From Massalongia carnosa (Eukaryota): a stretch of 64,000 bases of DNA. A program made the position numbers and the translations under genes. The stretch is taken from assembly GCA_965645245.1 (NCBI GenBank), contig OZ287083.1, forward strand, positions 868,001-932,000, in the 5' to 3' direction. Under the pieces are notes generated by a model, which was not told the origin of the DNA, did not search any database, and worked only from the letters and a program-made list of their open reading frames with translations. Shown piece after piece: positions 18,905 to 58,626 of this stretch; position 1 is the stretch's first letter; every line of letters begins with the position of its first letter.

Positions 18905-19442
18905 TGTAAGAGTCAGACCTGGCGATTAGCAGACACCAGGCCTAGGGATATGTGACAATGTGAAGACACTAATGATTTGCTATACTAATATACTAAATGA
19001 AGTATGTAGGTAAAGCGGAAGACTAATCGTTGAAGATTGCATCTCCCTCGAGCAGCCTCCTTATATACCCGGACCGAAGCCCTTGACCCTCTGGGCCCTT
19101 GATACTGTAACTATCTTGACCGCCCATTACTCCTACCGGATAAGCCGGCTAAACACTCTGCTGACTGCATCGTGGACACTGTGCTGACTGTATCGTAGAC
19201 ACTTTGCTGACTGTATCGTAGACACTGTGCTGACTGTATCGTGGACACTGTGCTGACTGTATCGTACCATCCGCTCACTAATCGTACGAGCATCCTCGTA
19301 TATCTCGATCGCTCGTGCTATACTCTCGGCAGTAGATACCAGCCGCGTAACGCAGACCAACTGCTTTCCATATGACTAAGCCTAGCCGTAGAACTAAGGC
19401 CCGCTTAGTTAGCTTAGCCCTTATTCCTTCTATGCCCTGACA
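18905..19442 (-). repeat. 5' LTR of Gypsy-1
   Basis: Direct repeat of 12822-13359. TATATAA on the minus strand at 19061-19067. Confidence 0.97.
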
Positions 19443-34710: not shown

Positions 34711-35206
34711 TGTAATAGCGCGGTAATACAGGACTGCGCTAGCTCCTGGGATGACTTACCCAAGAAGACCGGGTGACTGATAATCCGGATGCTTAGTCAT
34801 GATAAGGCGGATAGCAATTCTAAGCCAACAGTAATCAGCCTTACCAGTTTTTTAGGCAGCAACTGAAGCTATTAAGATAAGCCTCGATCTCATGGGAGGC
34901 CTGGGACGCCTAGGAGACCTCAGCTTAAGGCAACAAGGCTATCTGCTAGACCTCAGCTGAAGGCAACAAGGTTATCTGCTAGACCTCAGCTGAAGGCAGC
35001 AAGGCTATCTACTAGACCTCAGCTGAAGGCAACAAGGCAGACAGGTAACCAGACAAGAAGTTAGTAAATATGACCCCAAGGGGTATATAGAAAGCTCGAT
35101 TCCCATCTTCAGGGAATCAGCTTTTAGCTTTAGCATCTACCAATCTATTAACAGTTATTCTGAGCATTATAACCCATAAGGATTAGTGTCTACTGTCCCT
35201 CTTATA
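34711..35206 (+). repeat. 5' LTR of Gypsy-2
   Basis: Matches 40713-41426 once that copy's insert is removed. Contains about 3.8 copies of a 33-bp unit agacctcagctgaaggcaacaaggctatctgct (34915-35038). Confidence 0.94.
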
Positions 35207-35306
35207 ATTCTAAAAGCTCCATATCTTAGGATAGCTTGGTCCGACAGTTGATAGTTCAATCCTATCATACCTACCGTCCAAACAACTCAACCTATTTATC
35301 GTCAAC

Positions 35307-38300
35307 ATGAACACACGAGGACGAAGCGGCCAGAATTCGGCCAATCCCACGTCTAATCATTTTGATGACCTACTGGACTACGATACGCTGGAACAAATAC
35401 CACCAAACCAGCTAATCGACGAGATTAGAGCCATGCAGGCCCATTTGACCGAACAGACAGCAGCCATGCAGGCCCAGGCCACCTTGTTGACTCAGCAAAG
35501 TACCCGTCTCGCTGTCAATAAAAGGGAATTAGAACGACTGCACGAGGAAAGAGAGTCTCGTCGTCTTCCCTTCATGGAACGATCTTTCAGGTATAACCTC
35601 AAAGCTAAGCCGCCCGACCCGTATTATGGCAAGGGCAATAAGACCTTGTTCGAATTCACCAGACAATGCGAGGCTGTCTTTAGCACTAGTGGCATGCCTG
35701 AAACGGAACAAGATCGTCGTATAGCCTATGTAGGCAGCTACCTTCGAGACACCCCTAGCGACAATTGGCATGAGATACTATCACGAGGGGGTCATCTGAA
35801 TCTTACCTGGAAGGAGTTCAAAAAGAACCTCATGAATCAACTAGGCTCTACAGAAGTTTTCAAAGATCGAACTTGGATGCAGTACCATCATGCACAACAA
35901 CGTCCAAATGATACTGTTCAATCCTTTGCGGCCTACTTACAACGCCTACGAACAATATTAGCCGATGCAGATCCGGAACATCCTATTACCGAAGAACAGA
36001 TGGTCTAGAAGCTTCGTACGGGAGTCATACCAATAATTCGGAATTCCTTAGCACTAGGTCATCGACATCCCGCTACCATAGGGGAATTTATCAGTGATGC
36101 ACAACTAGCTAAGGTAGCGGCTGTGTTGCCATCATCAACAGGTAGAGGCTACTCCAAGCGGGAGCAAGGTGCCCCGGCTTCTAACGATCAGGGCCGCCGA
36201 GAACCATATCCAACTAATCATCTCGGAGGTCAAGGCGGAATAGGTCATCGAGGTAGTCATTACGGAAGAGGCAATAGAGGCGGAAGAGGCCGAGGCGGCA
36301 GGAATGCAGCTCCGGCTGGTACTAGCGCGCCGTCGAACAATAGCAATGCCATTCCGCTAGGCACTGTGACCGAGATACAAGACAATAACAAAAATAGCTA
36401 CTATAATTGTGGATCCCTCGAACATTGGGTAAAAGACTGTCCCCATCCAAAAAAATCATAGTCGCCGCTGCTGCCTCCCTACCGGCGACTACTATTAAAG
36501 AGGCATCGGCAAGTCCTAAGACATTGGAAGTCGCACCCTGCATAGAGTACGAAATAACGTACGCTAAAGAAACAGCAAAAGCACTAATTGACAGCGGAAG
36601 TGAAGTTAACCTTATTTCTAGAGCTTACGCAAATATATGCGCTCTGACAGTGTTACACTCCAGCGTCAGTTTGGAAGCTATTAATCACTAGCAAGTCATG
36701 ATACATGGCATGGGTCTGTTGGTGTTCGGGGTAACTGATCAATTAGATCAGCAACGTTTCTTTGAGGAAACATTCCTAATAGCAGATATACCTCATAATA
36801 TCGTGTTGGGCATGCCATTCCTGCAGCTAGCCAATCCCGATATCGATTAATCAGTAAGGACCCTGAATTGGCAAGAACTAAGCGTTCAATCGGCCCTGAT
36901 GACTACTCATCGGATAGAGATTATAGAACCAGTAATCTTCATAGAAGAGGCGTTATCAGAAGATACACTGACCTACGTGGTCCATGCTAAGGCACTAGGT
37001 ATAGATAATATCCATTCGAGCCGTCGAGCTAGAATAGCCTCAGTAAAGGTACAAGAAATCAAGGTCCCTGAGGCTTATAAGGATTTCGCAGATGTCTTTT
37101 CGGAAGATAGTGCAGCCGAGCTACCAGAGCACGGGCTACATGATCATGCGATTGACCTCGTGGATAGAAAGCAGCCTCCATATGGACCTATTTATAGCCT
37201 ATCAGAAACAGAGCTCACAGTGCTAAGGGCCTACCTCGATGCTCACCTGGCTAATAGGTTTATCCGGCTATCTACCTCACCAGCTGGAGCTCCTATTCTC
37301 TTCGTGCCTAAGGCAAATAGTACCCTGAGGCTCTGCGTAGATTATAGGGGTCTGAACAATCTGACAGTTAAAAATCGCTACCCGCTACCATTAGGAGGCG
37401 AGTCTTTAGATCGACTAGGATGGGCCAAACAGTATACCCAATTGGATTTGACTGCAGCCTATGATCGCATTAGAATTAAGAAAGGCGACGAATAGAAGAC
37501 AGCCTTTCGCACCCGTTATGGCTATTTCGAATACTGCGTCATGCCGTTCGGATTATCTAATGCTCCGGCCTCTTTCCAAGCCTATATCAATAAAGCGTTG
37601 GCAGTAAAACTGGATATCTTCTGTATCGTTTATTTGGATGATATACTTATCTATACCGAACAGAAGGGTAAGGCCCATGAAGATGCTGTTCGATGGGTGT
37701 TAGAACAACTCCGCAAGCATGGCTTATTTTGCAACTTACAAAAATGCCGATTCAGCACCGACGAAGTCGAATTCCTAGGCTATGTCATCAATCCTAAGGG
37801 TGTTTATATGCGAAAAGATCGCATCCAAACAGTGCAAAATTGGCCATGGCCCATATGCGTACGCGATGTACAGGTGTTCATAGGCTTCGCAAATTTCTAT
37901 AGACGATTCATTCGTGGGTTCAGTAAAATAGCAGGGCCACTTACCGCTATGCTGAAAACAAAGCCCGCTAATCATAGACAGAAACCACCTAAGGGTGTCG
38001 AAAGCGAGTTCTTTACGGAGGAAGCTCTAGAGGCTTTTGAGAAGCTGAAAAAGTCGTTCATAGAGGCCCCGGTACTAAGGCATTACGATGCTAGTAAACC
38101 AGTACGCGTGGAAACCGATACGTCAGGTTATGCTATTGGCGGCATATTGGCTCAGCAAGATGACGAGGGACAATGGCACCCTGTTGCCTATTACTCACGC
38201 AAGATGCTACCGGCTGAGCGTAATTACGAGACCCATAATGCTGAACTATTAGCGATAGTCGAGGCCTTCAAAATTTGGAGACATTAACTTGAGGGGTCGT

Positions 38301-40334
38301 CTCACGAAATTCTCGTGTTGACTGATCACAATAACCTTACGAGGTTTATGGATACCAAGCGCCTAAGCGGCAGGCAAATAAGGTGGGGTCAAGAGCTTTC
38401 CAGGTATAATTTCCGCATCGATTATCGTCAGGGTAAGAGGAACCCAGCCGATAGGCTGTCAAGACCTCCTACCGCTGGCGATGACGATGGCGAAGTGCTG
38501 GTTGAAAACCGCAAAACGCTCCACCTTTTGCAGACATCCCTAGCAGATAAGAACGCACGCGTTTGTCTAATGAGGGCAATGTCAGGGGAGTCGTTAGATA
38601 ATGCTTCTGGCCCGACGGGGTCTCACCACGGTGAAATATGGAAGATCATAACATGCGGAAGATTGGTTGTTCCGAAGGTGAAGGCATACTGAAGTTTATT
38701 GCGAAACTCTCTCGCACAGCGCGAGTCACCTTATACTCAACCCGCTTCTAGTTGAGTATTAGAGCGTCTTCCTGAGTTGCAACAGGTTGACGAGGTCGCT
38801 ATCACTGTTCGGAAAAGGTTAGCTACCTTGAAAGACAGTGACGTGTCGGGGACACAGGAGGTGGCGCCCTCCAGCGAGCCATGGTCGGACTCGGACCACT
38901 GTCTATTCCATGAAGGAAAGACCTACATCCCAGCCTCCTTACGAGGAGAAATTCTTGAGTTAAATCATGATGATCCGCTGGCAGGGCACTTCGGGAAAGA
39001 CAAGACGATTGAGCTAGTGCGTAGAAAGTACTACTGGCCATCGATGAAGTCAGACATAGCACGCTATGTAGAAGGTTGCGACGTCTGCATGAGTAGCAAA
39101 GCTACGAGGCATAAGCCTTGTGGAAACTTGCAGTCGTTGCCTATACCAACTCATAAGTGGAAGGACATTACGATAGACTTCGTCACTAGCTTACCTAAGA
39201 ATAAGGACTGGAGGGGAGTTGATTATGACTCTATCCTAGTCGTCGTTGATAGGCTCACCAATATGGTGCACTATGAGGCAGTGAAGAAAACGCTGACTGC
39301 TGAACAGTTAGCTGAAGAGTTATGGTACTGCGTGTTCAAGTATCACGGCCTACCTGACTCCATAGTCACCGATCGGGGCTCGCTATTTACATCAAACTTC
39401 TGGTCATCCCTATGCTATTACATGAAGATAAAGCGTAGGCTAAGCACAGCCTTCCATCCACAAACAGACGGTCAGACAGAACTTCAAAATAGTACCATAG
39501 AAGCTTACCTTAGGTCTTACTGCCGTTTCGAGCAAGATGACTGGGTGCAACGGCTCCCTACCGCTGAATTTGCATACAATAACACCCGTCATTCAAGCAC
39601 CAAGCTCACCCCGTTCGAGGCTAATATAGGCTACCACCCAAGGATGAGTTATGAGATAACCAAGACCCTCGATCGAAGTCGAAGACAGCTGAGGAACAGG
39701 CTAAAAATCTACGCGATTTGTTATCAGAGTTGAAAAATAACCTGCAATTAGCCCAAGACAATCAAGCCAATTATCACAATAGAACGGTGAAAGAACGTTT
39801 ATACGCTCCCGATGAAATGTTTTGGCTAAACAGCAAAAATATTAAGTCGAAAAGGAACAAGAAGCTTGAGCATAAGTTCTTGGGTCCCTTTAAGGTGTTG
39901 AGGCCTGTAGGCACTCAAGCTTACGAGCTAGAACTTCCGAAAAGTTGGAAAATACACCCATTCTTTCATGTATCTCTGCTGGAAAGAGACACCACCAGAA
40001 GGGAGGTAGTAGACGAACAAATAGCTGAACAGCTTAAATTCTAAGACGATGACATGCAAGAGTATGCAGTAGAGTGCATACGAGATAGTGCAGTCAATGC
40101 AAAAGAAGCAGAAGACGGACGACCGGCTGGATTATATTATCTAGTGCATTGGAAAGATTATCCCGACGCGGAAGACACATGGGAGCCCGTCGCCGGCGTC
40201 AAACATCTACGAAAGCTATTGAGGGAATTTCATTAGAAAAATCCTTCCAAGCCAACAGCAAAGTCTACCCCTCAGGCCACTAGGACTCCCTCATTAGCGA
40301 AAGAAACAAGACGACGCACAAAGAGGACTAAATA
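35307..40334 (+). pseudogene. Gypsy-2 gag-pol remnant
   Basis: Gag with knuckle YYNCGSLEHWVKDC, protease LIDSGS, RT LCVDYRGLN/YLDD, RNase H, integrase TDRGS and chromodomain EYAVECI..YLVHWKDYP. Many stops. Confidence 0.93.
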
Positions 40335-40712
40335 AGGCCTGCACTCTTTTCCTACCACCTGCCCACGAAAAAAGGTTGGAGATATTTAATGAGGCTGCGC
40401 TAGGAGCTCAGCAATGTGTTGCAGTAACGTCATGCTCGATTCCATCCAGGCCAGTAGCTCTTTTCCTAGCATCTTCCCTAGAAGGGAGGTGGGAGGTTTT
40501 TAATGAGGCTGAGCCAGAGAATCAAGTTATGTTATCCTAAAATCTTCCAAGCTCTTACAAATCCCAACTCTTGCTAGCCTGCATTCAAGCGGCCATCGAC
40601 GATAAAGCTATCGGCACGAATAACCGCTTGCAATTACCACGCGATGATAGGCTGAACGCACGAACTACCTGGGATGAATTTCGCAGGAGCTCATTACTAG
40701 AAGGGAGGTAAT

Positions 40713-41426
40713 TGTAATAGCGCGGCAATACAGGACTGCGCTAGCTCCTGAGATGATTCACCCAAGAAGACCGGGTGACTGATAATCCGGATGCTTAGTC
40801 ATGATAAGGCGGATAGCAATACTAAGCCATCAGCAATCAGCCTTACTAGTTTGTTAGGCAGCAACTGAAGCTATTCAGATAAGCCCCGATCTCATGGGAG
40901 GCCCGGGTCGCCTAGAAGACCTCAGCTGAAGGCAACAAGGCTATCTGCTAGACCTCAGCTGAAGGCAACAAGGTTATCTGCTAGACCTCAGCTGAAGGCA
41001 GCAAGGCTATCTACTAGACCTCAGCTGAAGGCAACAAGGCAGACAGGTAACCAGACAAGAAGTTAGTAAATAGAACCCTAAGGGGTATATAGAAAGCTCG
41101 ATTCCTATCTTCAGGGAATCAGCTTTTAGCTTTAGGACCTACCAATCTATTAGCAGTCACACTGAGCATTATGTAAGAACCACTATCCAGGGAAGACGAA
41201 TAGTAGTCAGCTACCTAAGAGACTAAGCATGAAGAAGAGAAATCTATCTACAAAGAAGAATGTGAAATCTATATGCCCGTTTGCCCTTCTTCTCGAAGTT
41301 TCCATCTGGCTCTAGAAGCTTATCTCCGAAGCTTCGGTCGGAAAGAGCCGTTGGATTTAGCGCTCCCACACCCGAGTCCTGACACATTATAACCCATAAG
41401 GATTAGTGTCTAATGTCCCTCTTATA
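40713..41426 (+). repeat. 3' LTR of Gypsy-2, interrupted by a solo LTR
   Basis: 714 bp = 496 bp LTR + 213 bp insert + 5 bp TSD. Confidence 0.93.
41172..41384. mobile_element. 213-bp solo LTR of another family
   Basis: tgtaaga...cctgaca termini and TSD catta (41167-41171, 41385-41389). Absent from the 5' LTR. Confidence 0.88.
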
Positions 41427-43350: not shown

Positions 43351-44364
43351 CACCCGTTTGCAAAATGGTGTGCCGAACTTTGAACCCCGAAACTGCGCGG
43401 TAAAAAAAAAAAAAATAAGCGACAGAATTGGACCACACACCAGAATTTGGTGCAGTAATTAATAGCCTTCCTCCCCTTCACACTGCCCTTTGCAGTCTAT
43501 AGGATAGTACGGTTAATGATATCCTTTTGATTGTCGTTTATATGAACTTTCAACGTAGTTATTCCAGCCATCATGCCTCGAAAACAGCCTCCTAAACAGC
43601 CTTCAAAACAGCCCCCCAAACAGCCCTCCAAACAATCATGAAAACGGGCATCTACTACTGAACTACCTAGGAACTCAGCACCTTCATTTAAACAAATGCT
43701 TAGGATCAATCCTCCTAGATCATCATCACCAGTTTTAAATGCCCGTATTCTTGATCTTTCATCACGTCTACCTTTACCAAGCAAAGATTGGTTGCGTTGT
43801 TGTGCTATACGAATGGCCATCTTTCGATTCCAGGCCATCTGCTTAAGAGTTCGAGAAACCGTAGACTCACTCACCAAGACATCGAATTCATCATATAAAA
43901 ACCAGCACATCTCGTCCAAATAAGAGGTATGTCTCTGATCCAGATACACGAGTAATTGATCGATTTGTTGTTGATTCATTTTCTTGCGCTGGCCAGTAGC
44001 AAGCTGAGGTTTTGCAACCTAACTGAAATGTTCCCAATTATGTCTCATCTTACGTAGTTGTCTGCTGCTGACACCAGTAGCATCTTCACCCGATTCCAGT
44101 CTGAACTTTATAGCCTGGCGTTTGATGATGCTGAATGATCGTCCCATGTTTGCTTTTGAAACTACGAGGTAGCAAGAATAAAGATCTACATGAGAACACT
44201 ACATATCATTTATCCTACAGACTGCAAAAGTTGGTGTGAAAGGGAGGAGGGCCATTAGCTACTGCACCAAATTCTGACGTGTGGTCCAATTCTGTCGCAT
44301 ATTTATTTTTTTTACCGCGCAGTTTCGGGGTTCAAAGTTCGGCACACCATTTTGCAAACGGGTG
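43351..44364 (-). mobile_element. Internally deleted long-TIR Tc1/mariner-like element (1014 bp)
   Basis: About 155-bp TIRs starting cacccgtttgcaaaatggtgtgcc and TA TSD. Keeps the HTH region YLDEMCWFLYDEFDVLVSESTVSRTL, but no DDE domain. Confidence 0.9.
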
Positions 44365-45269
44365 TAGTAGTATCGATATTTTGTTTCATGTTTTGAATTT
44401 CATCGAAATAGTGAAAGCAATTCAATAACAAGTGTTCTGGCGTTTGTCGTTGATTGCATCGATTTGTGCATTTTGACGAATTATAATCTTTCAATCGATG
44501 TAAATATGATCGAAAATAACCGTGTCCGAATTTTAATTGCATAATAGTGGCAAATATCAATTTGGAGTAGTTATTTGATAAATAATAAAAACTCGATATG
44601 TCAGGTTGCATTTCGAATTTCTCATAGTATTTGCCTTTCGATTTGCATTGTTGCCATTGATTCGTCCATGTAGTAAGCATATTTTGATTTATTTGATCTT
44701 TAACATAGTCAAATGATATCGCCGAGGACTCGACTAGGATTCCTTTATTTCCCGTCTTTGCTGTTTTGTCTGCAATTTCGTTTTCGGTAATTTTCGAATG
44801 ACTCAGAATCCATTGCAAAATCACCTGATAATTGCTTTCAAATAAGCGTTTTGCGAGCTTTCGAATTTGTCTTGCAAAAATATGATTTGTCAAGTTCTGA
44901 ATTTCGTTTATCGCCTTTATGCTATCAGAAAAAATCTATTTCGTTTTTTCTAAGTTCGATAAAATATTAGTATCGACAATTTATAGACCCATTTCATTGC
45001 TTGTAAAATGGCATGCAGTTCAGCATTTTTAATGCTTGACTGTTTGCTTAATTTCCAGCTTTTCGAAATCGTATGATACTTGATCAGACAATCCTTTTCG
45101 ATAAATCGATCAAAATTATCAATAATATTATTCTAATTCCGCAAAATTGGTGCAAATGTGACTGCAAACGTTGCAAATTCGATTCTTGATCCATCCGTAT
45201 AAAGTAAAACTCGGGATTTATCGGACTTCATTGATTGAATTTTTGATAAGGTCGAATAATAACTTGATT

Positions 45270-45638
45270 GATTGATTGATTTATTCTTATTCCGATATGA
45301 CACCGGCCGAAGGCCGGCCCATGCGGGCTGTCTATGTTTATCATACAAGGAAAACCCTTCTTGGGAATAAAAACCCCGTAGACTACTCACTACCTCCGGA
45401 GCCTCGCTGGCAACAGGCTGCTCTCTGTGATCGTTTTTCTTTAGAATCCTTGACGAAAATGAGAAGTTATATCTCGTATAACATTTGCGATGCTAGTGAG
45501 AACTGTGTTAACAAGTTTGCTTTTATTATCCATGCAGTTAGCTTTTTCAGCAATTTCGACGAACGCGTAATCGTCCGGTAGTCGTGGGTGCCCAATTGTC
45601 TGAGCAGCTCATATCTGCCTTCGATTAGTCTGCAGTGT
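45270..45638 (-). mobile_element. 369-bp 3' fragment of an unrelated LINE with (AATC)n tail
   Basis: TSD gaataataacttgatt (45254-45269, 45639-45654). Encodes an ORF2-like C-terminus HC...TAWIIKANLLTQFSLA, then AATAAA and aatc repeats. Confidence 0.82.
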
Positions 45639-46701
45639 GAATAATAACTTGATTTTACAGATTCTTTTGTATTTTCGATTTGAAATTCGATTTTACATGA
45701 CGATTTCCAAGGTTTAATGAAATGATTTAATGGTTCAAATTCATCAGTTTTGTAAACTATGTCAGAAACGGAATGAAGAACGCAAATAAGCTGACTAGGG
45801 TGTCGTTTATTTGTCTGTTTTTCATCTTCGTTCCATTCGGCATATTTGTTGTTCCATAAGCTAGTGTCAAAACCGATGTTTTCATATTTTATCGAATATG
45901 TGTTTGGAATTCTTTGACAAATGGGATTATTTTCGGCAATCTTCAATAATCGAAGTTTGACTGGTAAAACATGTGATTCAATTTCCATCCACTGAACAGG
46001 TGTGGTTTTGAAAGTTCCTAAAATTTTCCGAATCATTCAATTTTGCAAATTCTGAAATAGTTTTTCATATTTCTTTTGACCATTATACCGAAATTCTGAA
46101 CCGTAGTCCGAAAATAGGAACAATGCATGACAAATAGAGCTGTCTGCATGCGGTCGGTTTCAGACCCCATTCGGATTTCATCAAATTCTGAATTGCAAAA
46201 AATGATCGATTCGCAGAAGAGATTCGCGTTTCGACGTGTTTTTTGAAATTTAGTTTTCGGTCTAGCCAGACGCCCAACCATTTGACTACATTTTTCGGTT
46301 CTAGTATTGTCCCGTTTGGTAATTCCAATGGGTCTTCCGATACATTTCTTGTCTTTTCGAAGTGAATCAGCTCGGATTTATCGTCATCAAATTTGACATT
46401 ATTCGATGCGGCCCAATCAAAAGCTGTTTTGACTATGATTTCGATTTCTTTGCAATTTTGTTTTGCAGTTTTATTTTCGACATATATTGCAACATCGTCA
46501 ATAAAACTGGGAGAATGTGCATTAAATTTCATTCCTATTTTCGGAAACAAGTGACGAATGTAAATCAGAAATAGAATAAGCGAGATTGGTGAACCTTGTG
46601 GAATTCCTGATTCGATAAAATATGTTTTGCTTTTGTTTTCATCGAATATTAAATTGATCGATTGTTTTGTCATGAAATGCTTAACCTATTGAATTATTAT
46701 G

Positions 46702-47216: not shown

Positions 47217-49230
47217 TTATGCGAGTTAATTTCAGCTTTTTCATGACATTTAGCAGTTGATTAATCGAGACAAAGTCAAATGCGCCTTTTACATCGAGTA
47301 ATAAACAGGATAAAACGTTTTTATTTCGATTCGCAATTTCGTTATCATGAACGAGGTTCATTACTGCGTCAATTGCAGAATGATTTTTGCGTCCGCCCAT
47401 CTGTTCGATATCTAGTAAATTCGAATTTTCGCCGAAGTAGGCTAGTCGATTTGCAACGATTTTCTCAGCAATTTTACCAAGACAATTTAGTAATGTGATA
47501 ATTCGATATGATTTTGGTAGCGAATAGTCTGATTTATAGGTTTTTTCAGAACTGCACCGAGTCCTGTCCGCCAGCATAACGGGTGATAACCGATTCGAAT
47601 GAATTTCGAATAAATCATGAAAAACCCGTTATTCAACGATTGAAACGATTTTTGAACAATTGTAAAATTGATTGCATCAGGTCCACATGCTTTCTTCGGA
47701 TTAAATAAATTAATCGCATTTTGCAGCTCGTTTTCTGTCAAATCCGGCCAATCATCATCATTTTCGCTGTCTTGATTTGGTAAATCTTCGAAATTATCGT
47801 CTATAAATGGGTTCTTATTGTACATTGCTGACACAAACGCATCGCATTTGTCATCAAACTGAACATTAAGCTTATTTTCATGTATAATCGGCGGTATTCT
47901 TTCGAATATGTGCGGTTTAGTATATTTATACGCGATAAACACGTCTTTATTTGCTGCATTTTCTAGAAAAGTCAACTAGGTTTGTTGTTTTGCTTTTCGA
48001 ATTGCATGAAAATACTCGATTCGACTATGTTTAAACGTCCGATGACTACGGATAATTCTTCCATTCTCGACGATGCCTGCACATGATTTTTCGAAGTTCG
48101 GTTAAATCTTGCGACCACCAATTTTTCGATTTTGTACATATTTTTGTTTTCGGAATAAACATTTCAGCCGCGTTTTTGATAATTTTTTGCAAATGTATCG
48201 CTGATTCGTCGAATTGATGATTATTCAATAAACTTTAAACTTTTGATTCGTAGTTGATTGAATTTTCGTCTAGAAACTTCGCGAATTTATTCCAATCGGC
48301 TTTATTGCAATTATATTTATTCGATAATGCGGTTGCATGTGACGTCAAATTCTTGAAAGATGCGATTAGTTCAAATCGGATGACTTCATAATCTGAACCT
48401 GTGACTGCGTTTTCACCGATTGCCCAGTTTGTAATTGCATTTTCGATTTTAGAATTTGCAAATGTTAAATCAATAACAGATAATGAACTTCCAGAATGTG
48501 CGTAGAATGAACATAAATCAGGTGTGTTTATCAAACTACATTTGTTTATTTTCAACCATTTGACTAAATTTTCTGATCGAATTACGAGTTGAATTTTTGA
48601 ATTCCACCAGTTATGATGTGCATTGAAATCTCCACAAATGACGAATTGATTAGTTGATGTAGGTTGATATTTGATTAAAAGTCGATCGATCGGGTATGTT
48701 TCTCGATCATTTTGACTTTTTTCGTTATAAATATTGAAAATCTGTACTTTTCGAACTTCATCAATTGTAATTTCAATAATTTGCATATCGGAATCGTCAA
48801 TAAGATCTATTCTAGGCGTGCATTACAGTTTGGGATTACATTTTGTGACAAATATAGCTACTCTCGAGCGATATGTCGCTATTTTCGGCATAATGCATGT
48901 AAATGACGGATGTGATATTTTTTTTTGATCTCGTGTCCATGGTTCCTGAAACAAAACAATATCAATTGGATTTGATAAAGTATATTCCAAACACGAAGTC
49001 ATTGCATTCGTTGACCTTCCACAGTTGTGTTGAATAAATTTGACATTGTGAGTATTCTCTATATTTGCCAACGAATGCTGTCCTGCCATTATAAGGCGGA
49101 TAATTCGTCAGCCGATTTTCGTGGATTTAATGCAGTAAATATTTCACAATGTTCATCATTTGATTGATGATTTTTAAGGCAGTTTGCATATATCACAACA
49201 ACGTGTGCACACGCAGTTTTCGATTTGCAT

Positions 49231-52200
49231 TTTTTTATTTTATTTATTCATTAAGTGTATTCAACCTAAGGTTATGACACGAAACTATTTTAGGATATGT
49301 TTCTATATTACAAATAAATCAATCCTTTATAACGCATCTATGTATTGTCAATTTTTCCCCATTTTTACTCCGTGTTAGTAACAACCTATAGTAATCGAAG
49401 AATATCGATTTTAAAATTTGTCTTTGTAAGTTCGTGAATGTTTCAGCATAAATCGTTTCTGATTTTACTTTTCGATGTCTCCCTAACCTCCAGTTTCGAA
49501 AATCTCGTCATCAAGCTGACCTAGTATCTATTTTCTTGTCGCGATTTTGTTATTGACAATGAATTTAATCAAAATGTCATTTCCGATTTTAGTATTAAAC
49601 AACATATTCAAATTGATCGTAGTATCGATATTTTGTTTCATGTTTTGAATTTCATCGAAATAGTGAATGCAATTCAGTTACAAGTATTCTGGCGTTTGTC
49701 GTTGATTGCATCGATTTGTGCATTTTGACGAATTATAATCTTTCAATCGCTGTAAATATGATCGAAAATAGCCGTGTCCGAATTTTAATTGCATAATAGT
49801 AGTTATTATCAATTGGAACAGTTGTTTGATAAATAATAAAATCTCGATATGTCAGGTTTCATTTCGAATTTCTCGTAGTATTTGCCTTTTGATTTGCATT
49901 GTTGCCATTGATTCGTCCATGTGGTTAGCATATTTTGATTTATTTGATCTTTTACATAATCATATGTTATCGCCGAGGACTCGACTAGGATTTGATTATG
50001 GCCTGTCTTTGCTATTTTGTCTGCAATTTCGTTTTCGGTAATATCTGAATGACTCGGAACCCATTGCAAAATCACCTGAAAATTGCTTTCAAATAAGAGT
50101 TTTGCGAGCTTTCGAATTTGTCTTGCAAAAATATGATTTTTCAAGTTCTGGATTTCGTTTATCGCGTTTATACTATCAGAAAAAATCCAAATCGTTTTTT
50201 CTAAGTTCGATAAAATATTAGTATTCGACAATTTATAGACCCATTTCATTGCTTGTAAAATCGCATGCAGTTCAGCATTTTTAATGCTTGACTGTTTGCT
50301 TAATTTCCAGCTTTTCGAAATCGTATGATACTTGATCAGACAATCTTTTTCGATAAATCGATTAAAATTATTGATAATATTACTCCAATTCCTTATAATT
50401 GGAGCAAATGTGACTGCAGACGTCGCAAATTCGATTTTCGATCCATCTGTATAAAGTAAAACTCGGGATTTATCGGAGTTCATTGATTTAAAATTGGATA
50501 AGGTCGGATAATAACTTGATTTAGCAGATTCCTTCGTATTTTCGTATTGAAATTCGATTTTGCAAGGCGATTTCCAAGGTTTAATAAAATGATTTGCTTG
50601 TTCAAATTCATCAGTTCTGTGAACTATGTCGGAAACGGAATGAAGAACGCGAAGAAGCTGGCTAGGATCTCGTTTATTTGTTTGTTTTTCGTCTTCGTTC
50701 CATTCGGCATATTTGTTGTTCCATAAACTTGTGTCAAAACCGATATTTTCGAATTTTATCGAATATGTGTTTGGAATTCTTTGACACATAGGGTTATTTT
50801 CGGCAATCTTCAATAATCGAATTGCGTATTTTTGATTTTTCATTAATAATCGAAGTTTAACTGGTAACACATGTGATTCAATTTCCATCGCCTGAACAGG
50901 TGTGGGTTTGAAAGTTCCTAAAATCTTTCGAATCATTTGATTTTGTAGGTTCTGAAATAGTTTTTCATATTTCTTTTGACCATTATACCAAATTTCTGAG
51001 CCGTAGTCCGAAATAGGAATAATGCATGACATATAGAGCTGTCTGCATGCGGTCGGTTTCAGACCCCATTCGGATTTCATCAAATTCTGAATTGCAAAAA
51101 ACGATCGATTCGCAGAAGAGATCCGCGTTTCGACGTGTTTTTTGAAATTTAGTTTTCGGTCTAACCAGACGCCCAACCACTTGACTACATTTTTCGGTTC
51201 TAGTACTGTCCCGTTTGGTAATTCCAATGTGTCTTTCGATATATTTTCTTGTCTTTTCGAAGTGAAGCAGCTCGGATTTATCGTCATCAAATTTGACATT
51301 ATTCGATACGGCCCAATCAAAAGCCGTTTTGACTATGATTTCGATTTCTTTGCAATTCTGTTTTGCAGTTTTATTTTCGACATATATTTCAACATCTTCA
51401 ATAAAACTGGGAGAATGTGCATTGAATTTCATTCGTATTTTCGGAAACAAGTGACGAATGTAAATCAGAAATAGAATAGGCGAGATTGGTGAGCCTTGTG
51501 GAATTCCGGATTCGACATAATATATTTTGCTTAAATTTTCATCAAATATCAAATTGATCGATCGTTTTGTCATGAAATGCTTGACCCATTGAATTATTAT
51601 GCGAGATAATTTCAGCTTTTTCATAATATTTAGCAGTTGATTAATCGAGACAAAGTCAATTGCGCCTTTAACATCGAGTAATAAACACGATAAGACGTTT
51701 TTATTTCTATTTGCAATTTCAATATCATGAACAACGTTCATTACTGCGTCAATTGCAGAATGATTTTTGCGTCCGCCAATCTGTTCGATATCGAGTAAAT
51801 TCGAATTTTCGCCGAAGTAGGCTAGTCGATTTGCAACGATTTTCTCAGCAATTTTACCAAGACAATTTAGTAATGTGATATTTCGATATGATTTTGAAAA
51901 CGAATAGTCTGATTTATTAGGTTTTTTCAGAACTGCACCGAGTCCTGTCCGCCCGCATAACGGGTGATAACCGATTCGAATGAATTTCGAATAAATCATG
52001 AAAAACACGTTTTTCAACGATTGAAACGATTTTTGAACAATTATAAAATTGATTGCATCAGGTCCACACGCTTTCTTCGGATTAAATAAACTAATCGCAT
52101 TTTTCAACTCGTTTTCGGTCAAATCTGGCCAATTATCATCATTTCGGCTGTCTTGATTTGATAGATCTTCCTCATTATCGTCAATAAATGGGTTTTTTGT

Positions 52201-55088
52201 ATACATTGCTGACACAAATGCATCGCATTTGTCATCAAACTTAACATTTAGCTTGTTTTCATGTAGAATCGGCGGTATTTTTTCGAATATGCGCGGTTTA
52301 GTGTATTTATACGCGGTAAATAAATCTTTATTTGCTGCATTTTCTAGAAAAGTCAACCATGTTTGTTGTTTTGCTTTTCGAATTGCATAAAAATACTCAA
52401 TTCGACTATGTTTAAACGTCCGATGACTAAAATCGGACGGATAATTCTTCCATTCTCGACGATGTCTGCACATGGTTTTTCGAAGTTCAGTTAAATCTTG
52501 CGACCACCAATTTTTCGATATTGCACAAATTTTCGTTTTCGGAATAAACATTTCAGCTGCGTTTTTGATAACGTTTTGCAAATATATCGCTGATTCGTTG
52601 AATTGATGATTATTCAATAAACTTTGAACTTGTGATTCGTAGATGGTTGAACTTTCGTCTAGATACTTCGCGAATTTATTCCAATCGGCTTTATTGCAAT
52701 TTTATTTATTCGATAATGCGGTTGTATGTGACGTCAAGTTTTTAAAAGATGGGATTAGTTCAAATCGGATGACTTCATGATCTGAACCTGTGACTGCGTT
52801 TTCATCGATTGACCAATTTGTAATTGCATTTTCGATTTTAGAATTTGCAAAAGTTAAAACAATAACAGATGAAGAACTTCCAGAATGGGCGTAGTATGTA
52901 CATAAGTCAGGTTTCTTTATCAAACTACACCTGTTTAATTTCAGCCATTTGACAAGATTTTCTGATCGAATTGCTTGTTGAATTTTCGAATTCCACCAGT
53001 TATGATGTGCATTGAAATCTCCACAGATGACGAATTGATCAGTTGATTTAAGTTGTAATTGGATTAAAAGTCGATCGATCGTGTATGTTTCTCGATCGCT
53101 TTGACTTTTTTCGTTATAAATATTGAAAATCTGCACTTTTCGAACTTCATCAATTGTAATTTCAATAATTTGCATATCGGAATCGTCAATAAGATCCGTT
53201 CTAGGTGTGCATTGCAGTTTGGAATTTCCATTTGTGACAAATATAGCTACTCTCGAGCGATAAGTCGCTATTTTTGGCATAATACTTGTAAATGACGGAT
53301 GTGATATTGTTTTTTGATATCGTGTCCATGGTTCCTGAAACAAAACAATATCAATTAGATTTGATAAAGCATATTCTAAACACGATATCATTGCATTCTT
53401 TGACTTTGCACAATTATGTTGAATAAATTTAACATTTTGTGTATTTTCGATGTTTGTCAACGAATGCTGTCCTGCCATTACAAAGCGGCTAATTCGTCAT
53501 TCGATTTTCGAACATTTAACGATATAACCATTTCACAATTTTCATCATTGGATTGATGATTCTTGTTGCAATTCGCGCATTTGACGACGACGTGTGCACA
53601 AGCAATTTTTTACTTGCATGTTGTGCATTTGTAACGGTTCGACCAAGCGTGGTGCGGACGGCAGGACCTACAGCAAACATAGCAGGAGACCCAGTAATAG
53701 TAGAATAGAGCTTGGTCTGCGGACTAAGTATTGTGCCTTTTGGTCGGGAAGGACAGGTGGCGCAATGGTAGAAATCTATTCACTATCTCGCTTCGTCACA
53801 GAATACTTAGTCATCAATCGGTGTACTAGTCGTGAGTTCGATTCCTGACCTGAGTTCCTCGCTTTTTCGCCTTGCTTCGACGGACTGAAGCTAGGACGAA
53901 ACGGGAAAGCGTTGGATGAAAACTCTCTAAGTCGGATCGGCGAGGGCGGTACGCTAAGAAGAGCCCATTCTTCGGGGCTAACTATAACTGGAAGCGGCTA
54001 GGGGCTAGCCGCAGCTAGACGGGCGGTAGTGTAACGGTTCGACCAAGCGTGGTGCGGACGGCAGGACCTACAGCAAACATAGCAGGAGACCCAGTAATAG
54101 TAGAATAGAGCTTGGTCTGCGGACTAAGTATTGTGCCTTTTGGTCGGGAAGGACAGGTGGCGCAATGGTAGAAATCTATTCACTATCTCGCTTCGTCACA
54201 GCATTCATGATTGCGTGTTTCATGGTTTTGCGCACATATGCTGCATTTCGCTTGACTTTTGCATTGATAATGCTTGTGTCCAAATTTTTGACAATTAATG
54301 CATTGTGTGTTTGGACGAACGGAGGTAAATATTTCCGTGTCACAATGTCGGCCCGCGATATTGACTCCTTTTAACGCGTTCAAGGCCATATTTCGATCAT
54401 TGAATGTTAAAACAACGGATGATTTGATCTTGTTATGACGATCACGTGCTAGCCATCTGGGAACATCGCATAATTGCATGTTCGAATTGAACTTTTGAAT
54501 TTCGTCTTGCAAATATTGCATGTTTTCATCAAATGTTGCAATATTTACACCGTGTGCGACGACTTTGAACCACGATTCGTCCTTTCGAACTGTTCGTGGG
54601 TCGAATAAATGCTCCCATACTGATTTATTGTTCAATAAATCTTCAGCAGTGTTATCAGGACTAGTAGTCAGAACGATGTTTTGACCCGTTTTGGACTTTT
54701 CGACCGTGTTAACAACGATAGTCAATTTCGCGTTTTTAAAAAGCGAATTGATTTGATTTCGAAGCAACAGTGAATCGATATCGCCGATTTGAGCTTTCGG
54801 TGTGATTATCAATCGTCGAGATTTGATCGCCTTGAAATCGTCAGTATTATCGAATTCGTTCGCATTCGAATTATTGTTGTTGTTCTTGTTTGTTTTTTTG
54901 GATCGAGGAACGGTAGTCCAATTTTCGGAATTGACAGTCGCTTTTCCGAGCATTTGGCTTCATGTTCTAGCTGTATCGTTGACCTGCGGCCCTGGGACTC
55001 CGGCGGTTTCGCTCCGAATTTCTGGGTTGACGTTTTTAGTCAAATTCGAATTTCCATTTGAATTTCCCTTCGATTTTGTCTGTACAGG
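49231..55088 (-). mobile_element. LINE subfamily B, truncated within ORF1
   Basis: Poly(T) at 49231, frameshifted ORF2 (52702-53478, 50983-52617, 49809-51320), ORF1 part to 55088 interrupted by the TRIM. Confidence 0.93.
53630..54200 (+). mobile_element. TRIM-like non-autonomous LTR element (571 bp)
   Basis: Two identical 171-bp TG..CA repeats (53630-53800, 54030-54200), 229-bp non-coding interior, TSD gcatt, purine-rich tract before LTR2. Confidence 0.93.
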
Positions 55089-57183
55089 CTAAGAATGATA
55101 AAATAGAGTTGACATCTCCTTCGTGAAGTCTCTATCCCAGTTTTCGTTCATCTCACTGGTGCGTTTTACGGCCCAAGACTATTGATGAATTCTACGATTG
55201 GGGTGAACGACGTCCCATTCGCCCAGGTCAAACCCAGTTTACTCCTTAAGCATATATCAAGGGCGAGTCTAGCCGTAGCCCATGTGCCGGCGAACCGACG
55301 GGGTCTCGTTACGAGTGAGATAGACATTCCCTGCTCTTTATACACCTACATGCGCATACTGTCCTCTCGGGCTATGCAGACGGTCTCCGTACGGTGGCCG
55401 CCATTGCATACCACGCCTCACGGGATTTTTACGCCCACTTCGCGTTATTCATAAAGGTCTCCCGTTTATGAACCGACTATGTATCCCAGGGATTTCGACA
55501 GCTATGCTCCTGACCAGGCAGTATAGTATCGATTTTCCGTCCCTACTAACCAAAATAAGTCAAGGACAACTCGGAGGGATGCTCGTTTGAAATTCGTCTA
55601 TTAGCTCAGGGCCTAGACTGTTATCAATTAACGGGTTCCTCGTATATTGCCCTCTTCTTGTCCCAAGGGTGTCCTATTTGATGACTAGGTTGCCTCCACC
55701 ATCCCCGGTACGACTCCGGTTCGGGCCGTGTTGCTCACGGTAGCCATCAATCGGATGGTTTTCATAACCCAAATCCCTTGTATCATGTAGGGTGTGACCC
55801 TACACTATGTGTCTATATGTTTTATTTCTTTCAGCCGGAGGGCTCCGTGTTGTAGACGAAGGAGACCCGTGTGATAGACATAGCTGACCCGTGTCCTACG
55901 TCTTTAGCTCTCAGCCGATGACTGCATGAAAGGACTTGAACCTTTAAGAGTATGACCGAACGTTGTTAACGAGGTCTATGAAAATCTTATTAACGAGGTC
56001 TTCGAGAACAATATTAACGAAGTTCCGCTGAACTCTTTTCATTCGTTTTGTGATCCATCGAGGTCTACCCGTGTCAAATCCACACCATGCCCGTGTCAAA
56101 ATACATTATTTTCAGCTGATGACTGCTAGAAAGGACTTGAACCTCTAAAAATATGTACTCCGATATTAACGGGGTGCAGATCTGTCTTAACGAGCCCCCG
56201 CAGAACCCCCTTCACAGGGACGTGTTATTGGTTTGTGACTGTGTTTTTTGTAACTGTGTGTTTTGTGACTGTGTGTTTGTGACTGTATGTTTGTGACTGT
56301 GTGCTTTTTGACTATCTGCTTTGTACAACGTGTGATTGATGACTATGTGTTTTGTGACTTTGTTTTCCTCGATTTTATTTAACAGGCCGGGCCTATTAAA
56401 TGGGATATTGTTATTCTGCTCCGAGATGGAGTTTTCTTGAGGTGACAGCATTCGCCCCGGTGCCTTTACGCGTTCTGTTGATCCCAGCTGATGACTACAT
56501 GGGGAGACTTGAACTCTCAGTAGCTAGAACGCGTGTCGACTGTGCCCGGGTGGGGGATGATGCGGCTCCTTTGGTCCACATCTTCTTCCAGCTGATGACT
56601 GCATAAAGGGACTTGAACCCTTAGAAGCATGGTGCAGGGACGAGCGCATTCTACCCCCCCGGCGGTTGGCCTTCGTATCCTCTTCCGTACGTACGTCTGT
56701 GACGCGTGTGAACGCGTTAAATTAGCATTGTTTTGATGCGAAGAGATAGGAGCAAATCTATGTTTGACGGTCGCCCCACGGTGAGGCCTTTGGCGTCTCC
56801 ATGGTGAGGACCGATGGTGTAGAAGGAGGAGGACCGATGGTGTAGGCTCGTCCGTCTCGAGTCTTATCTGTATCGATTTCTGATATTCAGCGGTGAAAAG
56901 AGCTCAGAATATCAGGAGAACTGTTTAGGAAATGATATTTAACTGCATTGCTCTCGAGTGCAAGATCGTTTACTATCAAGCTTTTCCATTGTATCATAAG
57001 AGTGGAAAAGGTTGCAAGCTGATCGTTGGATCTCGTAGACCTGAAGCCTGCTCAATCACGAGGGAAGGCACATTATAAACTCAGAAAGACACCATAGTCG
57101 GTCGATGCAAGGCTTGAATACTCTCAATGAAACCCTATTCTGAAACCACATTCGAAAAATCAAAGGACGGAATAGAGTAGTAG
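55089..57183. other. 2.1-kb unassigned, apparently non-coding segment with repeated B-box/T-arm modules
   Basis: No similarity to other elements here and visibly less AT-rich than the LINEs. Four copies of cagcYgatgactRc..acttgaa. Lies inside a LINE TSD. Confidence 0.7.
56232..56366. repeat. Degenerate minisatellite (tttgtgactgtgtg-like, about 14-16 bp units)
   Basis: Repeated tgtgactgtgt units seen directly. Confidence 0.85.
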
Positions 57184-58626
57184 TTTCGATTTGCATATTA
57201 TGCATTCATGATTACGTGTTTCACGATTTTGTGCACAAATATTGCATTTTGATTTGTTTAGACACTGATAATGCTTGTGTCCGATTTTTTGACAATTAAT
57301 ACATTGTGTATTCGGACGAACGGAAGTAAATATTTCCGTGTCACAGTGTTTTCCCGCGATATTTACGCCTTTTAACGCGTTTAAGGCCTGATTTCGATCG
57401 TTAAAAGTCAAAACGACCGAAGAATTGACTTTATTTTCGCGGTCTCGCGCTAGCCATCTGGGTAAATCGCACAATTCCATGTTAAGGTTGAATTTCTGGA
57501 TTTCATTTTGCAAATATTGCATATTTTGATCAAACGTTGCAATATTTACTCCATGTGTGATCACTTTAAACCAGGATTCGTCTTTTCGAATTCTTTGTGC
57601 ATCGAACATATGTTCCCATATAGATTTGTTTTCCAACAATTCTGCAGCAGTATTTTTCGAACTAGTAGTGAGAACGATATTCTGACCGGTTTTCGATTTT
57701 TCGACCGTGTTGATTACGATATCTAACTTCGCGTTGCTGAATTGCGCGTTGATTTGATCTCGAAGTTTCAATGAGTCGATATCGCCGATTTGAATTTTTG
57801 GTGTAATTATCAGTCGTCTGAGTTTGATTGCATTTAATTCGTCGGTTTTGTTGAATTTGTTCGAGGTTTGACTCGAATTTTTCGATCTGGAAACAGTGGT
57901 CCAATTTTCGGAATTCGCAGTTGCTTTTCCAAGCATTTGACTCCAGGATGGAGGCGTGTTATTGACCTTTGTACTCGTAACCCCGGCGGTTTCCTTTCGT
58001 GCGTTCGTGTTGACGACTTTATTTGGATTTTCAGTCGTATTGACTTGTTGAACCCGAGTCGATTTTCGCGTTGTTTCTGAGGTTCGATTACTAGTCTGAT
58101 CAATTACCTTGTCCAATTTCCAATTCATCATGTCTAGTGTTGTTTTTATATTAATTGATTTTTTTGTCAATAAGGAATTGACATTATCAATGACTATTGC
58201 TGTTTCTGGATTTTGATCTAAGACAAATGACTTCAATAACGCGGTTTTAGCCGTTTTGAGTAATCCAATCGATTGTGCTCGAATGATTGCTTCTTGGCTT
58301 TCCTCTACTCGTTCGTCCAATGTTTTTCGTTTGTTACGTTTGATAGGCGGGCTTAATTCTATAGAATTTTACGATGACATGGGTAGATTGGTAGTAAATT
58401 TTCCAGATGAGAATTTGGTTGCTTTTGGGGTCGGCGTAGTCGGGGCGGACGAATATTCATGTGATTGATCCATAGGCTCGTCAAGTACAGTCGATTTTTC
58501 TATAAGTCCTACTGACGAGAGCCCCGGAGATTCAATTTGGGGAGGGTTTTGAGGAGTGCTCAGGGGTGTTCCCGGGGAGGCTTTCGATATAATTCGTCGA
58601 GTCCTAGGGAGTACCGGATTGAACAT
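57184..58626 (-). pseudogene. LINE subfamily C ORF1 (C-terminus displaced to 49090-49230)
   Basis: ORFs 58369-58626 and 57160-58320 are homologous to ORF1. The reading ..HECIICKSK resumes at 49230. Confidence 0.9.

What the first reader, a model, noticed from the sequence alone, without database searches (positions are those of the whole stretch)
53630..54200. Self-priming TRIM: miniature LTR element with an 11-nt PBS complementary to its own LTR
Seen: identical 171-bp LTRs, a 5-bp TSD and a 229-bp non-coding core. One base after LTR1 is aatacttagtc (53802-53812), the perfect complement of gactaagtatt inside the LTR (53722-53732); there is no TGG tRNA-type PBS. Established: described TRIMs generally use tRNA PBSs, and Tf1 self-primes through an 11-nt duplex. 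Inference: a recently mobile, tRNA-independent parasite of self-priming chromoviruses. I know of no description of this, but cannot search. No canonical TATA is visible.
Basis: partly seen in the sequence, partly recalled or inferred. Interest (0 to 1): 0.75.

Follow-up and report, generated by a model that had tools for sequence, protein, structure and literature searches.

The report
Self-priming miniature LTR retrotransposon in fungus
A 571-base non-coding retrotransposon, inserted in another mobile element of a probable lichen-associated fungus, seems to start its own reverse transcription with its own RNA end rather than a tRNA, an expected but apparently undescribed twist on a known kind of parasite.

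Summary
Window 53630-54200 is a 571-bp element with two identical 171-bp LTRs (TG..CA ends), a 229-bp non-coding core and a 5-bp TSD (GCATT). AATACTTAGTC (53802-53812), one base after LTR1, is the perfect complement of 53722-53732 in the LTR. By chance this happens at 3 of 20000 random sites.

It is a true insertion. Four paralogous copies of the host LINE in the window, and contigs in 3 of 4 public runs laid, show the empty site with a single GCATT.

It is a multi-copy family. Many different flanks abut the LTR ends, and one run from another labelled organism holds the element without the LINE flanks.

An intact chromovirus in the same window (12.8-19.4 kb) also has a self-complementary PBS, with a different sequence, so self-priming machinery is present. 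The actual helper was not identified.

The RNA 5' end could not be mapped, because no RNA run was listed. Only part of the Tf1 "pretzel" fold is predicted.

Best reading: a Tf1-style self-priming TRIM, a new variant of a known kind. Four literature searches found no earlier description. Interest is moderate.

The parts
53625..53629 (+). Left copy of the 5-bp target site duplication (GCATT)
   Evidence: Four paralogous LINE copies in the window carry a single GCATT at this site.
53630..53800 (+). 5' LTR, 171 nt, TG..CA ends (TGTAACG.../...CGTCACA)
   Evidence: 100% identical to 54030-54200. Terminal inverted repeat TGTAACGG versus TGTGACGA.
53695..53703 (+). TATA-like word (TAATAGTAG). Most family members read T at 53696, giving TATA 26 nt before the predicted RNA start. 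Promoter role is inferred.
   Evidence: for the sequence. table 3: 53696 A>T in nearly all depth of X1, X4, X5 and X6.
53722..53732 (+). Predicted self-primer (GACTAAGTATT) and predicted 5' end of the element RNA (start of R)
   Evidence: Perfect complement of 53802-53812. It pairs with the PBS in the MFE fold. The RNA start is not mapped.
53802..53812 (+). Primer binding site (AATACTTAGTC), one base (G53801) after the LTR
   Evidence: No TGG-type tRNA PBS.
53801..54029 (+). Non-coding internal domain, 229 nt
   Evidence: No ATG-ORF of 30 aa or more lies wholly inside the element. No Rfam family matches. No similarity to the other LTR elements of the window beyond words of 18 nt or less.
54017..54029 (+). 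Imperfect polypurine tract (AGACGGGCGGTAG, 10 of 13 purines) abutting the 3' LTR
   Evidence: The opposite orientation gives 6 of 13 purines.
54030..54200 (+). 3' LTR, 171 nt
54201..54205 (+). Right copy of the TSD (GCATT)
   Evidence: The empty-site joint 53624->54201 skips 576 (571 + 5) in runs X1, X4 and X5.
49809..54959 (-). Host element: an I/Tad-type LINE (ORF1-like 54183-54959, APE 52702-53496, RT 50983-52701, RNase H 49809-51332), interrupted by the insertion between ORF1 and ORF2
   Evidence: Pfam hits. Paralogous copies in the window.
53758..53867 (+). Side observation: pol III-like arrangement of an A-box-like word (53758-53768), a B-box-like word (53835-53845) and a T5 run (53863-53867), spanning U5, PBS and leader
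   Evidence: This is the only such combination in the window on both strands, and it arose in 4 of 3000 shuffles. No tRNA is called by ARAGORN at default settings or by Rfam.

Best explanation
This is a terminal-repeat retrotransposon in miniature (TRIM): a non-coding, non-autonomous LTR retrotransposon of a probable lichen-associated ascomycete. It is copied by the Gag, RT/RNase H and integrase of a chromovirus of the Tf1/sushi type. Proposed cycle, all inferred: transcription starts in the 5' LTR at about 53722, some 26 nt after a TATA-like word. The first 11 nt of the RNA fold back on the PBS one base after the LTR. The helper's RNase H cuts after nt 11, and the freed 3' OH primes minus-strand DNA through U5. 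The strand then transfers to the 3' R. Plus-strand synthesis starts at the imperfect purine tract at 54017-54029. Integrase inserts the TG..CA-ended DNA with a 5-bp duplication. What is shown: the architecture, the insertion itself (empty sites), the multi-copy status and the non-random primer/PBS complementarity. A chromovirus with the same PBS logic is also shown in the same window.
For: Architecture and identical LTRs. The 11-nt complement next to the LTR is rare by chance, at 3 of 20000 random sites and 3 of 5000 LTR shuffles. Only the + orientation gives it, and that orientation also gives a purine-rich tract before the 3' LTR, 10 of 13 against 6 of 13. Fold of 53722-53830: the 11-bp primer:PBS duplex is extended by UG pairing with the LTR's terminal CA, with MFE -30.2 kcal/mol and z -2.17, and 8 of 200 shuffles fold as well. 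True insertion: 4 of 4 paralogous LINE copies in the window that match both flanks have a single GCATT. A joint skipping 576 nt, with 3 to 5 letters fitting both sides, is seen in 3 of the 4 runs laid: X1 5 contigs, X4 2, X5 1. The fourth run, X6, has no cover on the LINE flanks. Family: loose ends with low agreement (0.43-0.57) at 53629, 53800, 54029/54030 and 54200 indicate many different flanks. X6, labelled as another organism, holds only 53627-54200 with a different flank, including one contig running from LTR1 through the core into LTR2, with 12 differences in 370 nt. Three U3 positions differ from the family majority in both LTRs alike, as expected if both LTRs were copied from one template. 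Self-priming context: chromovirus A has intact gag and pol with RT, RNase H, integrase, SH3_Tf2-1 and a chromodomain, LTRs 99.4% identical and TSD GTTAT. Its post-LTR CTAATCGTT is complementary to AACGATTAG, which lies 36 nt after the start of a TATATAA in its LTR. Its named Pol relatives are ascomycete proteins, one called Tf2-5 polyprotein-like. Self-priming is described as common in Tf1/sushi elements (passages of PMC6317226; bioRxiv 10.1101/2022.12.06.519325; PMC4600332).
Against: The RNA 5' end is unknown, so the defining point of self-priming is untested. The Tf1 'pretzel' needs three duplexes. Here the second is only 2 bp, and the third (post-PBS with U5) is no better than shuffles: 448 of 500 shuffles were as good or better. 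In a 149-nt fold the primer:PBS duplex is replaced by other pairings. The PPT is imperfect. No helper sharing the LTR ends or the PBS was found. Chromovirus A and gypsy B share no sequence with the element beyond short words, and gypsy B shows no self-complement. Chromovirus A's own 9-nt complement is only moderately rare: about 1% of random sites reach 9 to 11 nt. The host's tRNAs could not be examined, because no genome is held, so priming by an internal tRNA segment is not excluded. LTR depth far exceeds core depth in X4 and X5, so many LTRs are solo or belong to something else.
Confidence: 0.75

Rival explanations
1. It is a TRIM, but it is primed by a cellular RNA, such as an internal or anticodon-loop segment of a tRNA or a tRNA fragment, as reported for most fungal Helenus TRIMs. 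On this reading the LTR/PBS complementarity is only a structural U5-leader stem, like the stems that flank retroviral PBSs.
For: Kojima 2024 (PMC10886601, passages) reports that most fungal Helenus TRIMs have PBSs complementary to tRNA anticodon loops, not tRNA 3' ends, so the absence of TGG does not by itself mean self-priming. The host tRNA set could not be examined (and no tRNA gene in the window). The pretzel is incomplete.
Against: A perfect 11-nt match to the element's own LTR would then be a coincidence or a second function, and it is rare by chance. The LTR arm lies 26 nt after a TATA-like word, where an RNA start is expected. A chromovirus in the same window has the same layout.
Confidence: 0.12
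2. It is a pol III-driven TRIM of the TRIMp3/Helenus kind. A degenerate tRNA-derived unit (A box in U5, B box in the leader, T5 terminator) supplies an internal promoter, or is a relic of a SINE or tRNA capture. This reading can coexist with self-priming.
For: An A-box-like word at 53758 and a B-box-like word at 53835, each with 1 mismatch and 66 nt apart, are followed by a T5 run. This is the only such combination in 64 kb on both strands, and it arose in 4 of 3000 shuffles of the element. The box consensus words are recalled, not taken from a call. ARAGORN at an 80% threshold with introns calls a tRNA-like unit across 53705-53845.
Against: ARAGORN finds no tRNA at default settings or with introns allowed. 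The relaxed calls disagree with each other: Leu with a 66-nt intron at 80%, Pro inside each LTR at 70%. Rfam gives no tRNA hit even at E up to 10. Helenus carries the whole tRNA-like unit inside the LTR, whereas here it would straddle the LTR/core border. A pol III start near the A box would lie after the self-primer, and the T5 run would end the RNA after about 120 nt, so it could not be a transposition template.
Confidence: 0.08
3. It is not a mobile family member. It is a one-off internal deletion of a full-length LTR element, or a local 400-bp tandem duplication.
For: Only one copy lies in the window. No genome is held to count copies directly.
Against: There is a precise 5-bp TSD with empty sites. 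Many different flanks abut the LTR ends. The same LTR-core-LTR arrangement occurs on a contig of a run from another labelled organism with another flank. The core has depth comparable to the multi-copy LINE flanks in X1 and X5 (depth is a poor measure).
Confidence: 0.03

Closest known systems
[quoted passage not shown]
   Same: Total length under 1 kb, terminal direct repeats of 100-250 bp, a short non-coding core with the PBS at its start and a purine tract at its end, a 5-bp TSD, multi-copy status and dependence on a helper (definition as in PMC6934838, Introduction passage).
   Different: The definition read there, and the Helenus families (PMC10886601), have PBSs complementary to a tRNA 3' end or anticodon loop. 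This element's PBS is complementary to its own LTR. The bivalve TRIM paper mentions self-priming only as background and proposes no mechanism.
Tf1/sushi-group chromoviruses that self-prime (Tf1, Tf2, Tj1, Tosmo, Maggy, Skippy and others)
   Same: There is no tRNA-type PBS. The PBS just after the 5' LTR is complementary to an LTR word downstream of a TATA-like box, and the LTR's terminal CA joins the duplex region. That Tf1's primer is 11 nt long is recalled, not seen in a passage.
   Different: Those elements are autonomous, 5-6 kb, with gag and pol. This one is 571 bp and non-coding. The flanking duplexes of the 'pretzel' are weak or absent in prediction.
Helenus/TRIMp3, Cassandra and Ajax (TRIMs with small-RNA-derived pol III promoters in the LTR)
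   Same: A small fungal TRIM with a 5-bp TSD, with A-box-like and B-box-like words present.
   Different: No tRNA or 5S unit is detectable in the LTR. The motif pair straddles the LTR/core border. The PBS type differs.
Retrozymes (plant non-autonomous LTR elements with hammerhead ribozymes)
   Same: Small non-coding LTR-bounded elements (PMC4918200, search listing and start of abstract only).
   Different: No hammerhead or other ribozyme is matched by Rfam at E up to 10.

Membership tests
TRIM | Element under about 1 kb with terminal direct repeats of about 100-250 bp | tested here: met
   571 bp in total, with 171-bp LTRs that are 100% identical.
TRIM | No coding capacity (non-autonomous) | tested here: met
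   All 5 ATG-ORFs of 30 aa or more that overlap the element start or end outside it.
TRIM | PBS at the start of the internal domain, complementary to a tRNA | tested here: not met
   No TGG within 10 nt after the LTR. The PBS-position word is complementary to the element's own LTR instead. Host tRNAs were not available.
TRIM | Polypurine tract at the end of the internal domain | tested here: inconclusive
   AGACGGGCGGTAG has 10 of 13 purines and is interrupted by C, C and T.
TRIM | Target site duplication and evidence of transposition | tested here: met
   5-bp GCATT duplication. Four empty paralogous sites in the window, the empty-site joint in 3 of 4 runs, and many other flanks.
Tf1-type self-priming LTR element | PBS complementary to an LTR sequence rather than to a tRNA | tested here: met
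   11 of 11 nt, 53722-53732 against 53802-53812. By chance: 3 of 20000 and 3 of 5000.
Tf1-type self-priming LTR element | The complementary LTR word is the 5' end of the element's RNA | not testable with these tools
   No RNA holder was listed and all runs are kept as contigs. Only a TATA-like word 26 nt upstream supports it.
Tf1-type self-priming LTR element | Three-duplex 'pretzel' RNA structure (criterion from bioRxiv 10.1101/2022.12.06.519325) | tested here: inconclusive
   The central duplex forms, plus 2 bp (UG:CA). The post-PBS to U5 duplex scores -10.7 kcal/mol against a shuffle mean of -13.5, and 448 of 500 shuffles are as good or better.
Tf1-type self-priming LTR element | RNase H cleavage releasing the primer, and dependence on helper RT | not testable with these tools
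   This needs biochemistry or a transposition assay.
Helenus / TRIMp3 | tRNA-like sequence inside the LTR | tested here: not met
   ARAGORN gives 0 at default settings. Rfam gives no tRNA at E up to 10. Only sub-threshold, mutually inconsistent calls appear at 80% and 70% thresholds.
Cassandra / Ajax | 5S rRNA-derived sequence in the LTR | tested here: not met
   No 5S match in Rfam at E up to 10.
Retrozyme | Hammerhead ribozyme in the repeats | tested here: not met
   No ribozyme match in Rfam at E up to 10.

The most novel reading that the evidence does not exclude
This is the first recognised TRIM family that dispenses with tRNA primers and self-primes like Tf1. It is recently active in lichen-associated ascomycetes and present in runs labelled as several different organisms. 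It may also carry a relic or working pol III A/B-box unit across its U5-PBS-leader. At 571 bp it would be a minimal natural substrate holding every cis signal needed for self-primed retrotransposition.
Probability: 0.3. Interest if true: 0.55.

Novelty: new variant of a known kind. Interest (0 to 1): 0.4.

Why it matters
If confirmed, the element packs every cis signal for self-primed reverse transcription into 571 bp: promoter, self-primer, PBS, PPT and integrase ends. That would make it a compact natural model for dissecting Tf1-type priming and helper recognition. It also has a practical side. TRIM and LTR finders that require a tRNA-complementary PBS will miss or misfile such families in fungal genomes. 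The finding also shows recent LTR-element activity in a repeat-rich region of a probable lichen-associated fungus. It does not change any concept, because a non-autonomous derivative that keeps its helper's priming mode is what theory expects.

Tried and rejected
- **Whole genome:** not held, so copies, TSDs and primer/PBS covariation could not be counted directly.
- **RNA evidence:** no RNA holder was listed by the look-up of sequencing runs. All four runs laid are contigs, so no start, end or expression level could be read.
- **Metagenome scans:** two scans with the last 22 nt and the first 22 nt of the LTR gave 0 matches each. The prokaryote genome and viral contig collections were not scanned, because the prior was too low.
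- **Earlier scan notes:** none, by place, by sequence or by words.
- **Match at 56334-56358 (-):** this 25-nt match to the LTR-end/PBS junction lies in a low-complexity 'agtcacaaa' repeat and was rejected as a partner.
- **tRNA, 5S or ribozyme content:** Rfam gave only two chance-level lncRNA hits, E 3.3 and 5. ARAGORN gave none at default settings.
- **Chromovirus A and gypsy B as source or partner by sequence:** no similarity to the LTR or core beyond words of 18 nt or less.
- **Gypsy B self-complementarity:** nothing of 7 nt or more at four trial LTR ends.
- **Third pretzel duplex:** not above shuffles.
- **Opposite orientation of the element:** no self-complement and a poorer purine tract.
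- **Variant LTR subfamily:** it differs at the self-primer site (6 contigs in X1). Its PBS could not be seen, so covariation could not be checked.

Full report
**1. Observation**

- LTR1 (53630-53800) and LTR2 (54030-54200) are 171 nt and 100% identical.
- They begin TGTAACG and end CGTCACA, a TG..CA pair with a short terminal inverted repeat.
- GCATT flanks both sides, at 53625-53629 and 54201-54205.
- The core, 53801-54029, is 229 nt. All 5 ATG-ORFs of 30 aa or more that overlap the element start or end outside it.
- One base after LTR1, AATACTTAGTC (53802-53812) is the exact complement of GACTAAGTATT (53722-53732).

A complement of 11 nt or more starting within 6 nt of the LTR end is rare by chance. 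It occurred at 3 of 20000 random window positions and in 3 of 5000 shuffles of the LTR. No TGG follows the LTR in either orientation. Only the + orientation gives the self-complement, and it also gives a purine-rich tract before the 3' LTR, 10 of 13 purines against 6 of 13.

TAATAGTAG starts at 53695. Nearly all family contigs read T at 53696, giving TATA 26 nt before 53722.

**2. Surroundings**

The window is a nest of retroelements.
- **Host LINE.** The mini-element interrupts a minus-strand I/Tad-type LINE between an ORF1-like frame (54183-54959) and the APE domain (52702-53496). RT lies at 50983-52701 and RNase H at 49809-51332.
- **Chromovirus A (minus strand).** Its LTRs are at 12822-13359 and 18905-19442, 99.4% identical over the BLAST match, with TSD GTTAT. 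It has open gag (17586-18863) and pol (13837-17688) frames with RT, RNase H, integrase, SH3_Tf2-1 and a chromodomain.
- **Gypsy B.** An older gypsy element lies at about 34.7-41.2 kb, with LTRs 94.6% identical.
- **Host organism.** The named relatives of chromovirus A's Pol are ascomycete proteins: Dothideomycetes sp., Venturia, Elsinoe ('Tf2-5 polyprotein-like') and Berkeleyomyces. The best hit, at 99%, is an unnamed protein on a 2.08-Mb contig. One run that holds the stretch is labelled 'lichen metagenome'. The host is therefore probably a lichen-associated ascomycete. This is an inference.

**3. A real insertion and a family**

In the window, 4 of 4 paralogous LINE copies that match both flanks show left and right matches overlapping by exactly 5 nt. 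They read ...CATGTTGTGCATT[C/T]ATG..., with a single GCATT, at 27837-27841, 10119-10123, 5353-5357 and 22174-22178.

Four public runs were laid, all kept as contigs.
- A joint from 53624 to 54201 skips 576 nt (571 + 5), with 3 to 5 letters fitting both sides. It is seen in X1 (5 contigs), X4 (2) and X5 (1). X6 has no cover on the LINE flanks.
- Loose ends at 53629, 53800, 54029/54030 and 54200 have low agreement (0.43-0.57). Many different sequences therefore abut the LTR edges.
- One X1 contig joins 53800 to 54390. This may be another insertion into the same LINE family at a different place.
- X6, labelled as a different organism, holds only 53627-54200 at low depth with another flank. One of its contigs runs from LTR1 through the core into LTR2, with 12 differences and 2 gaps in 370 nt.

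So the 571-bp form is not a one-off deletion.

Summed LTR depth exceeds core depth about 10-fold in X4 and X5, and about 2-fold in X1 and X6. This suggests many solo LTRs or other elements with this LTR in some samples. Such depth is a poor measure, and I give no copy number.

Three U3 positions (53675, 53689, 53696) differ from the family majority, and they do so identically in both LTRs. That is expected if both LTRs were regenerated from one RNA template.

**4. Mechanism**

Published passages describe self-priming as follows. The PBS is complementary to the 5' end of the element's own mRNA, which folds back and primes. This is a common feature of Tf1/sushi chromoviruses from fungi to vertebrates, of the plant Tcn1 clade and of TAR copia elements (PMC4600332; bioRxiv 10.1101/2022.12.06.519325; PMC6317226). 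That Tf1's primer is 11 nt long is my recollection and was not seen in a passage.

The predicted RNA 53722-53830 folds with the 11-bp primer:PBS duplex. It is extended, across a one-base mismatch, by UG pairing with the LTR's terminal CA. The MFE is -30.2 kcal/mol with z -2.17, and 8 of 200 shuffles fold as well.

The full three-duplex 'pretzel' is not clearly formed.
- The second duplex is only 2 bp.
- The post-PBS to U5 duplex is no better than shuffles: 448 of 500 were as good or better.
- In a 149-nt fold, other pairings replace the primer:PBS duplex.

Chromovirus A shows the same logic with another sequence. CTAATCGTT (18901-18893), three bases after its 5' LTR, is complementary to AACGATTAG (19031-19023). 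That word lies 36 nt after the start of TATATAA (19067-19061). A 9-nt match alone is only moderately rare, at about 1% of random sites, but its position fits.

So the genome holds at least one apparently intact self-priming chromovirus that could supply proteins. It shares no LTR, PBS or core sequence with the mini-element, so the true helper is unidentified.

**5. Rivals**

- **(a) Priming by an internal tRNA segment.** Most fungal Helenus TRIMs have PBSs complementary to tRNA anticodon loops (PMC10886601). This cannot be excluded without the host's tRNAs, but it leaves the 11-nt self-match unexplained.
- **(b) A pol III/tRNA-derived TRIM.** I noticed an A-box-like word (53758), a B-box-like word (53835) and a T5 run (53863-53867). 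This is the only such combination in the window on both strands, and it arose in 4 of 3000 shuffles. The box consensus words are recalled. However, ARAGORN finds nothing at default settings and gives only inconsistent calls at relaxed thresholds. Rfam finds no tRNA, 5S or ribozyme. A pol III RNA from there would lack the self-primer and stop after about 120 nt.
- **(c) A non-mobile deletion or duplication.** This is contradicted by the evidence in section 3.

**6. Comparison and novelty**

The element meets the size, repeat, non-coding, TSD and mobility criteria of a TRIM. It fails the 'PBS complementary to a tRNA' criterion, and its PPT is imperfect. It works like a Tf1-type self-primer as far as sequence can show, but the defining RNA start is untested.

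Four full-text searches found no paper describing a self-priming TRIM. The bivalve TRIM paper cites self-priming only as background and proposes no mechanism. The text of Kojima 2024 has no occurrence of 'self'. Supplementary tables of these papers were not opened. Repbase entries and subscription journals are outside the library, so an earlier mention cannot be excluded.

I rate it a new variant of a known kind. It is expected in principle, apparently undescribed, and of moderate interest.

Noticed in passing
window 12822-19442 (minus strand): An apparently intact chromovirus. Its 538-nt LTRs are 99.4% identical over the BLAST match, the TSD is GTTAT, and gag and pol are open with a chromodomain. 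Its PBS-position word CTAATCGTT is complementary to AACGATTAG, which lies 36 nt after the start of a TATATAA in its own LTR, so it is a candidate self-priming element. Its LTRs carry four 23-bp tandem repeats (13047-13205 and 19130-19288).
   Followed up: partly
window 53758-53867: An A-box-like word, a B-box-like word 66 nt later, and a T5 run span U5, PBS and leader of the mini-element. This is the only such combination in the window, and it arose in 4 of 3000 shuffles. No tRNA is called at normal thresholds. It may be a relic of a tRNA or SINE capture.
   Followed up: partly
window 54200 -> 54030 (run X1, table 5): One contig (depth 874) joins the LTR end directly to the LTR start. This fits either a 2-LTR circle junction or two adjacent insertions. 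The two cannot be told apart from contigs.
   Followed up: no
window 54120-54149 (run X1, table 7): Six contigs carry a variant LTR that differs from the window's copy exactly at the predicted self-primer word. The PBS of that subfamily could not be seen. It would be the natural test of covariation.
   Followed up: no
window 53630-54200 versus the whole window: The mini-element is 51% G+C in a window of 39%. The surrounding LINE copies are 80-96% identical to each other, and transitions are the commonest single-base changes tallied in the runs laid (table 1). Whether repeat-induced point mutation has acted on the LINEs and spared the short element was not tested.
   Followed up: no
window 387-9517, 20712-25514, 27541-28135, 44312-46685, 48941-54959, 57160-58368: There are many full or partial copies of one I/Tad-type LINE family (APE, RT, RNase H), some with long open frames. 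Inverted copies flank chromovirus A: 11500-12295 against 19996-20798, 94% identical.
   Followed up: partly
window 34711-41172 (+): An older gypsy element has LTRs 94.6% identical and split RT/RNase H and integrase frames. No self-complementary or TGG-type PBS is recognisable.
   Followed up: partly
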